8,511 nt of DNA, taken from IMG/VR virus record IMGVR_UViG_3300028957_000063, positions 1 to 8,511 of that record; one strand, given 5' to 3'. Shown piece by piece: positions 5,953 through 8,511 of the stretch. The notes below the pieces were generated by a model. That model saw only the letters and a list, made by a program, of their open reading frames with translations, did not search any database and was not told the DNA's origin. Origin of the DNA: a virus (Duplodnaviria > Heunggongvirae > Uroviricota > Caudoviricetes). A program made the translations under genes and the position numbers. Position 1 is the stretch's first letter. Each line of letters begins with the position of its first letter.

Positions 5953-5987
5953 NNNNNNNNNNNNNNNNNNNNNNNNNNNNNNNNNNN
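5953..5987. other. Run of 35 ambiguous bases (N): assembly gap or masked segment of unknown true length
   Basis: Directly visible in the sequence. Confidence 0.99.
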
Positions 5988-6265: not shown

Positions 6266-6414
6266 CGTGCGGTGTCTTGATGAATAAAATTTAGAATAAC
6301 CTAAGGTGGATGGTCAAGGTTTTTGTGTAGAAAAACCTAAGTTTTTTTGATGTAAAAAACACAAGTGTTTGAAAGTTTGTGCTTTTTATTACAGGGTGTG
6401 GAGAAAAAAGGGGG
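6266..6414 (-). promoter_or_regulatory. AT-rich intergenic region downstream of the repressor gene: putative leftward early promoter (pL analogue) with operator-like sites
   Basis: On the minus strand, TTGACC (complement of 6313-6318) is followed about 18 nt later by TAAATT. Operator-like imperfect palindromes at 6289-6306 (ATTTAGAATAACCTAAGG) and 6325-6342 (GTGTAGAAAAACCTAAGT) share the TAG-N6-CTAAG core with the pR-side sites. Confidence 0.4.
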
Positions 6415-6822
6415 TTATTTGTTTGCGCTTCTTTTGCGAGCTTTGAGTAGTTCTTCAAAAAGTTTGTTGAAATTTTCAACTCGAGCACGCATCTCTGACA
6501 ACAGGGCCTTTTGCTCTGACTCAGGCAGTGCGTCGAACAGTTGAAGTAACTCTTTTTGATCTTCTGTCAGAATGGCTGGTTGATTATCCGGGAGCGGTTC
6601 GCCTGGTTGTTTATCTTCATCCCCAAAAAGAAGCCAAGTCGGTGAGCACTGAAGCGCTTGGCTCAGTGCGAATAATCTTTTCCCCGCCGGCTGTGTTTCA
6701 TCTCTTTCCCATTGAGAAATTGTTACGTGAGCCACTTTGACCAGCTTACCTAATGCGGCCTGAGACAGTTTTAATTTTTTACGCCTATGTAAGAGGCGAG
6801 CACCGAAGGTTTCGTTTTTCAT
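6415..6822 (-). CDS. dicA: Prophage repressor, HTH XRE-family, DicA-like (cI analogue), 135 aa
   Basis: N-terminal HTH (LSQAALGKLVKVAHVTISQWER). Strong resemblance from memory to E. coli DicA (blocks such as LFALS..LQCSPTWxLFGDEDKQP and EMRARVxNFNKLFEELLKAR). Divergently arranged with a Cro/DicC-like gene. Confidence 0.85.
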   Translation of the reverse strand: MKNETFGARLLHRRKKLKLSQAALGKLVKVAHVTISQWERDETQPAGKRLFALSQALQCSPTWLLFGDEDKQPGEPLPDNQPAILTEDQKELLQLFDALPESEQKALLSEMRARVENFNKLFEELLKARKRSANK

Positions 6823-6898: not shown

Positions 6899-7126
6899 AT
6901 GTTGAAAATTGATGCTATAGCGTTTTTTGGCAGCAAAACAAAGCTTGCCAATGCCGCAGGAGTTAGGCTGGCAAGCATTGCTGCATGGGGGGAACTGGTT
7001 CCTGAAGGTCGCGCGATGCGCCTGCAAGAGGCATCCGGCGGGGAACTTCAGTACGACCCTAAAGTTTATGACGAATATCGTAAGGCAAAGCGGGCGGGGC
7101 GGTTGAACAATGAAAATCACCCCTGA
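6899..7126 (+). CDS. dicC: Cro-like regulator, DicC/YdaS-like (75 aa)
   Basis: Small ORF divergent from the DicA-like repressor with a strong AAGGAG Shine-Dalgarno sequence. Translation resembles DicC from memory (FGSKTKLA..AG.RLAS...LVPEGRAMRLQEASGGELQYDP...). Confidence 0.8.
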   Translation: MLKIDAIAFFGSKTKLANAAGVRLASIAAWGELVPEGRAMRLQEASGGELQYDPKVYDEYRKAKRAGRLNNENHP

Positions 7127-7661
7127 ACAGGTTTGTGAGGCTCTGGATGCCTGGGTATGCCGACCAGGAATGACACAGGAGCAGGCGACGATATTAATCA
7201 CGGAAGCATTCTGGGCTCTGAAAGAACGCCCGAACATTGATGTTCAACGCGTCACGTTTGATGATGGCGCGGTTGATCAACGGGCACTGGGCGTTAACCG
7301 GGTGAAGATATTCGAACGCTGGAAAGCTATCGACACCAGGGATAAGCGTGAAAAATTCACGGCGCTGATTCCGGCAATTATGGAGGCTATCCGGATCAGC
7401 GATTTCAGGTTGTATTGTGAAATTACTGACGGAAAAAGCATTACGTACATGATCGCCGGGTTAAACAAAGAATATGGCGATGTGGTGGAGTCCGGGCTGC
7501 TTTTTGCGGATCCAGCTGTTGTGGAGCGTGAGACTGACGAGCTTATAGAAAAAGCTATTGCTTTCAAGCATGCGTATCGTCAGCAATACCAACATTACTT
7601 TGCAGATAAACAAATATCTGTCTGGGGTTCGTATGAGTATCGATGCACTACGATGGGCTAA
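7110..7661 (+). CDS. Prophage early regulatory protein at the cII position (183 aa), possibly CII(CP76)-like or YdaT-like
   Basis: ORF starts inside the last codons of the cro-like gene (17-nt overlap, different frame) and ends at TAA 7659-7661. Family assignment is from position and size only. Confidence 0.6.
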   Translation: MKITPEQVCEALDAWVCRPGMTQEQATILITEAFWALKERPNIDVQRVTFDDGAVDQRALGVNRVKIFERWKAIDTRDKREKFTALIPAIMEAIRISDFRLYCEITDGKSITYMIAGLNKEYGDVVESGLLFADPAVVERETDELIEKAIAFKHAYRQQYQHYFADKQISVWGSYEYRCTTMG

Positions 7662-8511
7662 AAAGGTGAAAACCGGCAGTTCATCCAGCAAGTCAGTATT
7701 GACCTGGCTTGCTGATATGTGCGGTGCCGATTTGTGTGCATACCCGTCTGTATCTGCACTGGCAGAAGTAACGGAACTGAACAAAAAGACTGTGCAGGAC
7801 AGCTTACGACACCTGATGGAGATTGGGTTAATTGTTGATACCGGTGAGAGAAAAGGCAGAACAAAGCAAATTGTGGTGTACCGACTTATCGGTGTAGAAG
7901 AAAGTGTTGCCGAGCCTGAATACACCCAAAAACGGGAGTCTTTAAAGGTGGGTAAAATTGGTGCTGTTAATAAAAACAGTACCGAAAATGGTTATGTTTC
8001 AGCACAAAACAGCCCCAAAAACGGAACTCTTAGCTGCATGGAAAATAACCAAAGACACCCAAATTTTCCATCAAAGACACCCAAAAACGGATCACGGAAC
8101 CCAAAGGAACCCAAAGATCTAACCCCCACACATAACGCACGCGAGAGTGCTCCGACCAGTGAGCAGGAAGTTTTGTCGTTACAGGCAGCACCCCCTGTAT
8201 TCCTGGGTGGCCTGAGCGAACCCATCGGAAAATTTCCGATGACCGATAGCTGGTATCCGTCACGGGATTTTCGACGACGGGCTGCGTTGTGGGGGATGGC
8301 TTTGCCGGAGACAGAATTTACACCTGCTGAACTTGCCGCCTTCCGGGACTACTGGGCAGCGGAGGGGAAAGTATTTACGCAGATTCAGTGGGAGCAGAAA
8401 TTCGCCCGTCACGTAAATCACGTCAGGGCGCAGGTTAAACCAGTCAGCAAGGGGGTGAACCATGCAGCAGCACCAGGTGGCACCGCATCACGGGCAGTTC
8501 AGGAAATTCGG
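7633..8511 (+). CDS. Phage replication initiation protein (O-like: N-terminal winged-helix/HTH, C-terminal DnaT-like region), 3' end beyond the window
   Basis: Open frame from ATG 7633 to the window end with no stop (hand-translated: MSIDALRWAKKVKTGSSSSKSVLTWLADMCGADL...). Not in the ORF track, presumably because it has no stop in the window. Overlaps the upstream gene by 29 nt. The C-terminal part (FRDYWAAEGKVFTQIQWEQKFARH) looks like DnaT-type replication proteins. Iteron-like repeats lie in the linker. Confidence 0.75.
   Translation, partial: MSIDALRWAKKVKTGSSSSKSVLTWLADMCGADLCAYPSVSALAEVTELNKKTVQDSLRHLMEIGLIVDTGERKGRTKQIVVYRLIGVEESVAEPEYTQKRESLKVGKIGAVNKNSTENGYVSAQNSPKNGTLSCMENNQRHPNFPSKTPKNGSRNPKEPKDLTPTHNARESAPTSEQEVLSLQAAPPVFLGGLSEPIGKFPMTDSWYPSRDFRRRAALWGMALPETEFTPAELAAFRDYWAAEGKVFTQIQWEQKFARHVNHVRAQVKPVSKGVNHAAAPGGTASRAVQEIR
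7922..8115. repeat. Iteron-like direct repeats inside the replication gene: putative phage origin of replication
   Basis: Core CCCAAAAACGG occurs three times (7925-7935, 8014-8024, 8080-8090). There is a further ACACCCAAA copy at 8055-8063 and a tandem GGAACCCAAA x2 at 8096-8115. The block lies in the linker of the O-like gene, as the ori does in lambda O. Confidence 0.5.

What the first reader, a model, noticed from the sequence alone, without database searches (positions are those of the whole stretch)
7922..8115. Iteron cluster inside the replication gene: probable origin of replication
Several copies of an 11-nt core plus related tandem decamers sit in the predicted inter-domain linker of the O-like replication protein. 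This mirrors lambda, where the ori iterons lie within the O gene. The repeats also force a Pro/Lys/Asn-rich low-complexity linker in the protein. An AT-richer stretch (about 7950-8010) lies between the first and later repeats.
Basis: partly seen in the sequence, partly recalled or inferred. Interest (0 to 1): 0.45.

Follow-up and report, generated by a model that had tools for sequence, protein, structure and literature searches.

The report
Phage replication origin inside initiator gene
The repeats are real DNA-level binding sites (iterons) embedded in the flexible-linker coding part of a prophage replication-initiator gene, almost certainly the phage's replication origin, and the same 17-base site is kept unchanged in related phages of very different bacteria even though it is read in three different reading frames.

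Summary
Observation confirmed and sharpened. The window (an E. coli lambdoid prophage, 98% identical to 'PPompW' prophages) carries four same-strand 17-nt iterons, AAnnnnnCC(A/G)AAAA(C/T)GG, at 7919-7935, 7975-7991, 8008-8024 and 8074-8090. It also carries a T-tract variant unit (8052-8073) and two tandem GGAACCCAAA decamers (8096-8116).

All of these lie in the predicted disordered linker (aa 91-199) of the initiator. This linker separates an N-terminal winged-helix domain from a C-terminal DnaT-like domain.

In 16 divergent homologues (Enterobacterales, Vibrio phage, Burkholderiales) the 17-mer occurs 69 times in the linker DNA. It occurs 0 times in 86.5 kb of surrounding sequence. It is always on the coding strand and appears in all three reading frames (PKNG/TENG, QKR, PKT).

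Synonymous positions inside the motif are frozen: Lys AAA 47/47, Arg CGG 15/15, Pro CCC 35/40. So the DNA, not the peptide, is under selection.

A relative with the same C-terminal domain but a different N-terminal domain (Rac-SA53 YdaU) has no such sites.

The gene occupies the lambda O position, and lambda-P-like loader or DnaB-like helicase genes follow it.

The interpretation as an origin is supported by comparison only, without experiment. The protein is an O analogue, not a member of the O family. The AT-rich claim is weak.

The parts
7633..8511 (+). 5' 879 nt (293 codons) of the replication-initiator gene. It runs off the window end; the full length is 346 aa in the near-identical LC567822.
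   Evidence: Translation. PHROG 1032 'replication initiation protein', E = 9e-91. It sits at the lambda-O position, after the repressor, cro-like and cII-like genes.
7633..7902 (+). N-terminal winged-helix DNA-binding domain (aa 1-90), the presumed iteron reader.
   Evidence: AlphaFold pLDDT above 93, with four helices plus a beta-hairpin wing. Foldseek matches generic wHTH regulators. HTH_36 scores 21.2 bits, below the 25-bit cut-off here but recorded for homologues.
7903..8229 (+). Coding region for the predicted disordered inter-domain linker (aa 91-199). It holds all the repeat elements.
   Evidence: pLDDT 42-53 over aa 91-199.
7919..7935 (+). Iteron 1, AATACACCCAAAAACGG. Read as Y-T-Q-K-R (core in frame 2).
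   Evidence: PWM 29.8 bits; frame.
7937..7976 (+). Most AT-rich 40 nt of the array (GC 0.30), the spacer between iterons 1 and 2. A weak candidate unwinding region.
   Evidence: Its position is not conserved among homologues.
7975..7991 (+). Iteron 2, AACAGTACCGAAAATGG. Read as S-T-E-N-G (frame 1).
   Evidence: PWM 23.1 bits.
8008..8024 (+). Iteron 3, AACAGCCCCAAAAACGG. Read as S-P-K-N-G (frame 1).
   Evidence: PWM 31.3 bits.
8038..8071 (.). Inverted repeat ATGGAAAAT / ATTTTCCAT (9-nt arms, 16-nt loop) in the gap before the last iteron.
   Evidence: I6. As single-stranded DNA it folds at -6.1 kcal/mol, z = -2.4. Homologues have A-tract/T-tract inverted pairs at the same place.
8052..8073 (+). 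Variant 'T-tract' unit AAGACACCCAAATTTTCCATCA. It has the same 12-nt left arm as iteron 4, followed by a T-tract instead of AAACGG.
   Evidence: (D2). Equivalent units (AAnnnnCCC + GTTTTTCC or AATTTTGG) occur directly before the last iteron in 11 of the 16 genes, the window included.
8074..8090 (+). Iteron 4, AAGACACCCAAAAACGG. Read as T-P-K-N-G (frame 1).
   Evidence: PWM 24.8 bits.
8096..8116 (+). Tandem decamers GGAACCCAAA x2.1. This is the local form of a conserved second repeat class (GAAYC, period 10-13) that starts 6 nt after the last iteron. GATC sites flank it at 8090 and 8116.
   Evidence: Across 16 genes there are 34 GAAYC copies against 1.5 expected, and the first copy is at +6 in 14 of 16.
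8140..8511 (+). Start of the separately exchanged C-terminal module, 89.5% identical to Rac-SA53 ydaU. It contains the DnaT-like ssDNA-binding domain (aa 201-267 = 8233-8433).
   Evidence: H13, query 741-1112. Pfam DnaT 61.6 bits. PDB DnaT E = 1.7e-19. Foldseek 4ou6 rmsd 0.9 A.

Best explanation
Window 7919-8116 is the replication origin of this lambdoid prophage. It is built on the same plan as lambda ori but belongs to an unrelated initiator family.

Proposed mechanism:
- The initiator's own N-terminal winged-helix domain binds the four directly repeated 17-bp iterons (AAnnnnnCC(A/G)AAAA(C/T)GG, each with an A-tract) and forms an O-some-like nucleoprotein complex.
- The adjacent elements (the T-tract variant unit and inverted repeat, then the GGAAC(C) tandem repeats at about one-turn spacing, flanked by GATC sites) form the region where the complex extends or distorts the duplex.
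- The C-terminal DnaT-like domain, tethered by the disordered linker, then brings in the lambda-P-like loader with host DnaB, or contacts unwound ssDNA.

Because the sites sit inside the gene, they dictate the Pro/Lys/Asn/Gly/Gln/Arg-rich linker peptide.

Shown here: the sites exist, are under DNA-level selection, are confined to this spot, and co-occur with the N-terminal domain.

Inferred: who binds them, and that replication starts here.
For: (1) Specificity. The 17-mer pattern occurs 69 times in 4,320 bp of linker DNA of 16 divergent homologues and 0 times in 86,555 bp of the rest of those loci, on both strands. In the window, a PWM trained on other genera finds only the four sites.

(2) DNA-level rather than peptide-level selection.
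- The copies lie in all three frames (50/15/4), and 19 of 53 spacings are not multiples of 3.
- Within the peptide motifs, Lys is AAA 47/47 (background 81/184), Glu is GAA 25/25 (64/154), Gln is CAA 15/15 (27/107), Arg is CGG 15/15 (37/183) and Pro is CCC 35/40 (21/102).
- The Gly third position just outside the core is free.
- This holds in loci with GC from 0.43 to 0.64.

(3) Linkage to the N-terminal domain. The sites are present with every C-terminal domain type and every downstream partner. They are absent from Rac-SA53 YdaU, which has the same C-terminus and a different N-terminus. The Acinetobacter clade has a clade-specific centre base.

(4) Replication context.
- The protein matches PHROG 'replication initiation protein'.
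- The gene sits at the O position, followed by Phage_lambda_P genes (L001, L111, L112, L113, L115, phiV10) or DnaB_C helicase genes (L114, L116).
- The iterons begin right after the DNA-binding domain, as lambda's do at O aa 117-144.
- In lambdoid phages the origin lies in the middle of O and consists of O-binding iterons plus an AT-rich tract (PMC7466680).

(5) A conserved higher-order layout in most of the 16 genes: direct iterons; in 11 of them a 55-83 bp gap holding one or two T-tract units; the last iteron; then GAAYC repeats beginning exactly 6 nt later.

(6) The linker is predicted disordered, so it can tolerate DNA-imposed sequence.
Against: - There is no experimental evidence for any member of this family. 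No paper describing these sites was found.
- There is no clear, positionally conserved AT-rich unwinding element. The minimum GC here is 0.30, which is not exceptional in the window.
- There is no DnaA box in the window.
- The iteron has at most a 3-bp dyad (CCG/CGG), unlike lambda's dyad-symmetric 19-mers.
- One of the four cores is mutated (CGG to CAG) in the common E. coli haplotype represented by LC567822.
- In this prophage lineage the P-like gene is short (140 aa, lacking about the first 88 profile positions), so the element may not be replication-proficient.
- The homologues are related by descent, so the codon counts are not fully independent.
Confidence: 0.78

Rival explanations
1. 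The repeats are a by-product of a functional repetitive peptide. On this view the (S/T)P(K/E)NG low-complexity linker is selected at protein level, and the DNA repeat is only its shadow or the trace of recent slippage.
For: The linker is low-complexity, and PKNG-like peptides recur in all homologues. Vibrio phage H20 has four perfect 24-bp tandem units that look like recent duplication.
Against: The same DNA motif is translated as PKNG/TENG, QKR and PKT in three frames, and spacings are often not multiples of 3. Synonymous sites inside the motif are invariant, while the adjacent Gly wobble position is free. Rare codons (CCC, CGG, CAA) are used throughout, even in GC-rich hosts. The segment is predicted disordered.
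Confidence: 0.03
2. The sites are genuine binding sites of the initiator (or another phage or host protein) but serve control rather than initiation: initiator titration or handcuffing, autoregulation, or a transcription roadblock. The actual start site would lie elsewhere, for example in one of the strongly AT-rich intergenic regions.
For: No convincing unwinding element lies next to the iterons, and several segments elsewhere in the window are much more AT-rich, e.g. 6316-6393. Iterons in plasmids are known to have control roles as well (established knowledge of iteron plasmids).
Against: The sites are absent from promoter regions and from every other part of 16 loci. The conserved ordered layout with a second repeat class at fixed distance looks like an assembly platform rather than an operator. 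No sigma-70-like promoter is found in 7500-8511. The placement matches the lambda origin.
Confidence: 0.12
3. The invariant motif is recognised by a conserved host factor rather than by the phage initiator. This would explain why it is nearly identical from Vibrio to Burkholderiales.
For: The core is unusually constant across hosts, whereas the iterons of lambda, 21, phi80 and P22 differ from one another (established knowledge).
Against: The motif's presence tracks the phage N-terminal domain, not the host. E. coli Rac-SA53, with a different N-terminal domain, lacks it. The Acinetobacter clade of the domain has its own centre base. The most conserved protein segment is the wHTH helix and wing (DTGERKG..VYRL). 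There is no match to the DnaA box, and from my own recollection of the IHF consensus, not tested here, the motif does not resemble an IHF site either.
Confidence: 0.05

Closest known systems
Bacteriophage lambda ori (four iterons plus an AT-rich tract inside gene O) and the Stx-phage variants with six iterons
   Same: Directly repeated initiator-binding sites lie inside the initiator gene, immediately after the N-terminal DNA-binding domain (lambda O aa 117-144, this protein aa 96-153). The gene follows cII and precedes a P-type loader gene. The number of iterons changes the length of the protein linker. The N-terminal domain plus ori behave as one exchange module, separate from the C-terminal domain.
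   Different: The initiator is not detectably homologous to O: no PF04492 hit, and hhalign gives 3.8%. The iteron is a 17-mer with an A-tract and almost no dyad symmetry, whereas lambda's are 18-19-bp dyad-symmetric sites. Spacing is irregular (56, 33, 66 bp). There is no clear AT-rich tract. Extra conserved elements are present (T-tract unit, GAAYC repeats). The C-terminal domain is DnaT-like. The iteron is nearly invariant across bacterial orders.
Rac prophage YdaU/YdaV-type replication module (Rac-SA53)
   Same: The C-terminal DnaT-like half of the initiator is the same (89.5% nucleotide identity from window 8140 on), and a short lambda-P-like protein lies downstream.
   Different: The Rac-SA53 protein has a DUF1376 N-terminal domain and no copy of the iteron (best PWM score 2.7). 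It must therefore use a different origin sequence.
Initiators of phiV10/epsilon15-like, Bcep176, Acinetobacter AP22/AB1-like, Vibrio H20-like and Edwardsiella EPP-1 phages (PHROG 1032 and relatives)
   Same: Same N-terminal domain family (33-60% identity). Where examined (phiV10, Bcep176, Vibrio H20, and the Acinetobacter genomic loci), the same iteron array lies at the same place.
   Different: Copy number (3-7), spacing, C-terminal domain and helicase or loader partner all differ. Database annotations call them 'primosomal protein', 'DnaT' or 'hypothetical', and none of the feature tables read for phiV10, Bcep176 and Vibrio H20 lists an origin.
Iteron-containing plasmid origins (RepA/pi/TrfA type)
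   Same: Arrays of same-orientation 17-22-bp sites bound by a winged-helix initiator.
   Different: Plasmid iterons are intergenic and are accompanied by DnaA boxes and an AT-rich DUE. Here the array is intragenic and there is no DnaA box in the window.

Membership tests
Lambda-type phage origin (iteron array inside the initiator gene) | Several directly repeated sites within the initiator ORF, between the DNA-binding and C-terminal domains | tested here: met
   Four 17-mers at 7919-8090 within the linker aa 91-199. The arrangement is conserved in 16 homologues.
Lambda-type phage origin (iteron array inside the initiator gene) | The initiator gene lies in the early-right operon after cII and is followed by a helicase loader or helicase gene | tested here: met
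   A cII-like/YdaT gene lies at 7110-7661. Phage_lambda_P or DnaB_C genes lie downstream in L001, L111-L116 and phiV10. The downstream gene is outside the window itself.
Lambda-type phage origin (iteron array inside the initiator gene) | An AT-rich unwinding tract adjacent to the iterons | tested here: inconclusive
   The minimum 40-nt GC is 0.30 at 7937-7976, between iterons 1 and 2. It is not exceptional in the window and its position is not conserved.
Lambda-type phage origin (iteron array inside the initiator gene) | The iterons are bound by the initiator's N-terminal domain | not testable with these tools
   There is only co-occurrence evidence: sites are present with the domain, absent when it is replaced, and the Acinetobacter clade has its own variant.
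Lambda-type phage origin (iteron array inside the initiator gene) | The fragment supports initiator-dependent replication | not testable with these tools
   This needs a plasmid replication assay or marker-frequency analysis.
Phage_rep_O protein family (Pfam PF04492, lambda O) | Sequence match to the O N-terminal domain profile | tested here: not met
   No PF04492 hit at E <= 0.01, whereas lambda O scores 123 bits. hhalign of the family alignment against lambda O gives probability 3.8%. Only weak PHROG 'O-like' hits were found, E 4e-12 to 1e-7.
HTH_36-type phage initiators (Pfam PF13730 / PHROG 1032) | N-terminal winged-helix domain matching the family profile | tested here: met
   PHROG 1032 E = 9e-91 over aa 1-298. 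PF13730 is recorded for most homologues but scores 21.2 bits here, below the 25-bit cut-off. The wHTH fold is predicted with pLDDT above 93.
DnaT ssDNA-binding domain (Pfam PF17948) | C-terminal three-helix DnaT domain | tested here: met
   61.6 bits against a 25-bit cut-off. PDB DnaT chains match at E = 1.7e-19. Foldseek 4ou6 gives rmsd 0.9 A and 54% identity.
Iteron plasmid origins | DnaA boxes next to the iterons | tested here: not met
   No TTWTNCACA anywhere in the window.

The most novel reading that the evidence does not exclude
This is the so-far undescribed, universal origin module of a large family of temperate-phage initiators (PHROG 1032 / HTH_36 type). A single, almost invariant 17-bp iteron and a fixed grammar have been kept from Vibrio and Acinetobacter to Burkholderiales and Enterobacterales: direct iterons, a T-tract inverted half-site, the last iteron, then GAAYC repeats at one-turn spacing beginning exactly 6 nt later. 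The GAAYC repeats could be a new kind of origin element, for instance a helically phased track along which the initiator or its DnaT-like ssDNA-binding domain spreads to open DNA in the absence of a classical AT-rich DUE. The invariance would make the module portable between hosts and predictable from sequence alone.
Probability: 0.2. Interest if true: 0.6.

Novelty: new member of a known kind. Interest (0 to 1): 0.42.

Why it matters
It assigns a probable origin of replication, with base-pair coordinates and a searchable consensus, to a widespread phage initiator family. Databases currently label these proteins 'primosomal protein', 'DnaT' or 'hypothetical'. The family includes prophages of Shiga-toxin-producing E. 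coli, where prophage replication affects toxin gene dosage.

It is also a clean natural example of overlapping codes. A protein-binding DNA motif is kept intact in three reading frames and forces the sequence of a disordered protein linker.

Practically, the 17-mer AAN5CCRAAAAYGG can be used to annotate origins in such phages and to design replication or incompatibility experiments.

Tried and rejected
- The viral-contig scan returned only 98-100% identical E. coli prophage copies. Their polymorphisms were too few to show whether iteron cores are protected within the species; one core even carries a G-to-A change in a common haplotype.
- Literature searches for the motif, for iterons plus DnaT or HTH_36, and for phiV10/epsilon15 origins found no description of these sites. 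The exact-sequence search only turned up the unrelated papillomavirus E2 site ACCGAAAACGGT, a coincidence.
- The Eru papers on Stx-phage replication regions mention HTH_36 proteins but no iterons.
- The promoter and terminator scan of 7500-8511 found nothing meaningful.
- The DnaA-box search was negative.
- Fold search of the N-terminal domain gave only generic winged-helix regulators and no specific initiator.
- Helical phasing of iterons: spacings (17, 18, 24, 33, 55-66 bp) do not fit a single helical repeat, so I make no claim about phased bending.
- A conserved AT-rich DUE was looked for on either side of the arrays and not found.

Full report
**What the window is.** The 1.1 kb around the finding is 98.2% identical to eleven E. 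coli 'PPompW' prophage records. The gene that contains the finding starts at 7633 on the + strand and runs off the window end. In LC567822 the full product is 346 aa and is annotated 'phage replication protein'. Upstream lie a DicA/CI-type repressor gene, a cro-like gene and a cII-like/YdaT gene. Downstream, outside the window, lies a 140-aa lambda-P-like gene (PF06992, 58 bits; PHROG 'P-like helicase loader'). So the gene sits exactly where lambda has O.

**The protein.**
- Pfam finds a C-terminal DnaT ssDNA-binding domain (aa 201-267, 61.6 bits) and a sub-threshold HTH_36 match at aa 36-67.
- PHROGs place the protein in 'replication initiation protein' families (phrog_1032, E = 9e-91), with only weak hits to 'O-like' families.
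- An AlphaFold2 model built on 42 homologues gives a confident winged-helix domain (aa 1-90, pLDDT above 93). It gives a low-confidence, structure-less segment (aa 91-199, pLDDT 42-53) and a confident DnaT-like domain (about 95).
- The DnaT-like domain superposes on E. coli and Salmonella DnaT at 0.9 A. The N-terminal domain matches only generic wHTH regulators.
- Lambda O belongs to PF04492. This protein does not, and a profile comparison gives no support for homology (3.8%). 'O-like' is therefore right as an analogy, not as family membership.

**The observation.** The repeats are there.
- CCCAAAAACGG occurs three times, at 7925, 8014 and 8080, and nowhere else in the window.
- The 14-mer ACACCCAAAAACGG occurs at 7922 and 8077 exactly and at 8011 with two mismatches.
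- GGAACCCAAA is tandemly repeated at 8096-8116.
- Comparison with homologues shows the real unit is a 17-mer, AAnnnnnCC(A/G)AAAA(C/T)GG. The two A's at -7 and -6 are 96-98% conserved.
- A weight matrix trained on other genera only finds four sites in the whole window: 7919, 7975, 8008 and 8074, all on the + strand, at 23-31 bits. The null maximum was 16.

**DNA or peptide?** This was the key question, because the repeats could simply mirror a repetitive linker peptide. I collected 16 divergent homologues of the N-terminal domain with their DNA:
- Edwardsiella, Plesiomonas, a Klebsiella-like contig, Yersinia, Salmonella, Ralstonia, Noviherbaspirillum and a Burkholderiaceae MAG;
- four metagenomic contigs;
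- Vibrio phage H20, Escherichia phage phiV10 and Burkholderia phage Bcep176.

All of them carry 3-7 copies of the same core in the same part of the gene.
- The 17-mer pattern occurs 69 times in the 4,320 bp of linker DNA and not once in the remaining 86,555 bp of these loci on either strand.
- All copies are on the coding strand, but they lie in all three reading frames (50, 15 and 4). They appear in the proteins as (P/T/S)(K/E)NG, as QKR and as PKT.
- 19 of 53 spacings are not multiples of three. In the window itself, iteron 1 is read as TQKR and iterons 2-4 as TENG, PKNG and PKNG.
- I located the peptide motifs independently of the DNA and tallied their codons. Every Lys was AAA (47/47; 44% elsewhere in the same genes), every Glu GAA (25/25; 42%), every Gln CAA (15/15; 25%) and every Arg CGG (15/15; 20%). 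Pro was CCC in 35/40 (21%).
- The third position of the Gly codon, one base beyond the core, varies freely (GGT 23, GGG 18, GGA 9, GGC 1).
- This holds in loci with GC from 0.43 to 0.64.

The sequences are related by descent, so these are not independent trials. However, the proteins are only 30-60% identical, and neighbouring synonymous sites have randomised.

**Who goes with the sites?** The array accompanies the N-terminal domain.
- It does so whatever follows it: DnaT, Phg_2220_C or no recognisable C-terminal domain.
- It does so whatever the downstream partner is: lambda-P-like, DnaB-like helicase or other.
- Conversely, Rac-SA53 YdaU shares the C-terminal half with the window (89.5% nucleotide identity from 8140 on) but has a DUF1376 N-terminal domain. 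It has no site; its best score is 2.7 bits.
- The mosaic junction lies about 25 nt after the last repeat, so N-terminal domain plus array form one exchange unit.
- In the Acinetobacter clade of the domain (about 40% identity, with an insertion near helix 1) the unit keeps its frame, AACAGTnCC…GGAAC. Its centre base changes from A to C or T (27 C, 8 T and 3 A in 39 sites).

**A conserved grammar.** Most arrays share an order.
- First come several direct iterons, often packed head to tail at 17-18 or 24 bp.
- In 11 of the 16 genes there is then a 55-83 bp gap. It holds one or two 'variant units' that keep the left arm (AAnnnnCCC) but continue with a T-tract. In the window this is 8052-8073, AAGACACCCAAATTTTCCATCA; elsewhere it is …CCCGTTTTTCC or …CCCAATTTTGG. 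This creates an inverted repeat with an upstream A-tract (window 8038-8046 / 8063-8071).
- Then comes a last iteron.
- Beginning exactly 6 nt after it in 14 of 16 genes are two to four GAAYC repeats at 10-13 bp spacing: 34 copies against 1.5 expected.

The window's 'related tandem decamers' are this second repeat class. In several enterobacterial members, GATC sites flank these repeats (window 8090 and 8116).

**What is weak.** The 'AT-richer stretch' exists: GC 0.34 over 7950-8010, and 0.30 over 7937-7976. But it is unremarkable, since seven places in the window are more AT-rich. It owes much to the A-tracts, and its position is not conserved. There is no DnaA box and no promoter-like site. 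Where the duplex opens is therefore open.

**Mechanism.** The best-supported reading is an origin of the lambda type.
- The winged-helix domain binds the iterons and builds a nucleoprotein complex.
- The adjacent inverted half-site and GAAYC repeat region is where the complex extends or distorts DNA.
- The DnaT-like domain on its flexible tether engages the P-like loader with DnaB, or the exposed single strand.

Lambda provides the precedent: its origin lies in the middle of O and consists of O-binding iterons and an AT-rich tract. Extra iterons lengthen the O protein, and synonymous iteron mutations abolish replication (PMC7466680; lambda annotation). Binding and initiation are inferred here, not shown.

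**Rivals.**
- A peptide-level explanation is contradicted.
- A control-only role, or an origin located elsewhere, cannot be excluded without experiment, but it fits the fixed grammar poorly.
- A host-factor site is unlikely, because the motif tracks the phage domain rather than the host.

**Novelty.** An origin inside an initiator gene is textbook. I found no description of this iteron, or of an origin for this initiator family, in the searchable literature, nor in the three phage feature tables I read, for phiV10, Bcep176 and Vibrio H20. What is mildly unusual is how constant the site is across bacterial orders, the clean three-frame evidence, and the second, fixed-distance repeat class. I rate it a new member of a known kind, of moderate interest.

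Noticed in passing
window 5953-5987: A run of 35 N (masked or unresolved bases) interrupts the window, inside the early-left region.
   Followed up: no
window 6315-6370 (AT-rich region 6316-6393): A 24-nt tandem repeat x2.4 (CAAGTGTTTTTGTGTAGAAAAACA, itself containing a GTTTTT/AAAAAC inverted pair) lies in the most AT-rich part of the window. This is the intergenic region just downstream of the DicA/CI-like repressor gene (6415-6822, minus strand). It could be a terminator, an operator or another site.
   Followed up: no
L001:5306-5728 (just beyond the window end): The lambda-P-like gene after the initiator is only 140 aa and matches only positions 89-235 of the 236-position PHROG 'P-like helicase loader' profile. 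Rac-SA53 ydaV is similarly short (153 aa), whereas relatives have 224-252 aa. One PHROG (15931, 482 positions) spans the initiator C-terminus and this protein as if they were fused. This is either a natural short form tied to the Rac-type C-terminal module or a decayed gene.
   Followed up: partly
window 8090 and 8116; L003, L112, L118, L120 just after their last iteron: GATC (Dam) sites bracket the GAAYC repeats in several enterobacterial members (…CGGGATCCGGAA… and …AAAGATCT…). In Edwardsiella the complement reads GATCTTTTATCTT, one mismatch from the oriC 13-mer consensus GATCTnTTnTTTT as I recall it. This may be a methylation- or SeqA-sensitive element.
   Followed up: partly
L119:2852-2968 (Vibrio phage H20): Four perfect 24-bp tandem iteron units (AATAGGCCCGAAAACGGTACTTTG) give the peptide NRPENGTL x4. 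This is an example of recent iteron amplification within the family.
   Followed up: partly
window 7633-7661: The initiator start overlaps the end of the upstream cII-like/YdaT-domain gene (7110-7661) by 29 nt, which suggests translational coupling.
   Followed up: no
iteron variant ACCGAAAACGGT (e.g. L026, L116): Some copies are literally the papillomavirus E2 binding-site consensus ACCG-N4-CGGT with an A-tract spacer. The literature search for the motif returned HPV papers only. This is a coincidence of sequence, not homology.
   Followed up: no
L001:4616-4625 versus window 8015-8024: In the common E. coli haplotype (LC567822) iteron 3 carries CGG to CAG in its core (AGACCCAAAAACAGA), changing PKNG to PKNR. 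So not all four sites are intact in every copy of this prophage.
   Followed up: partly
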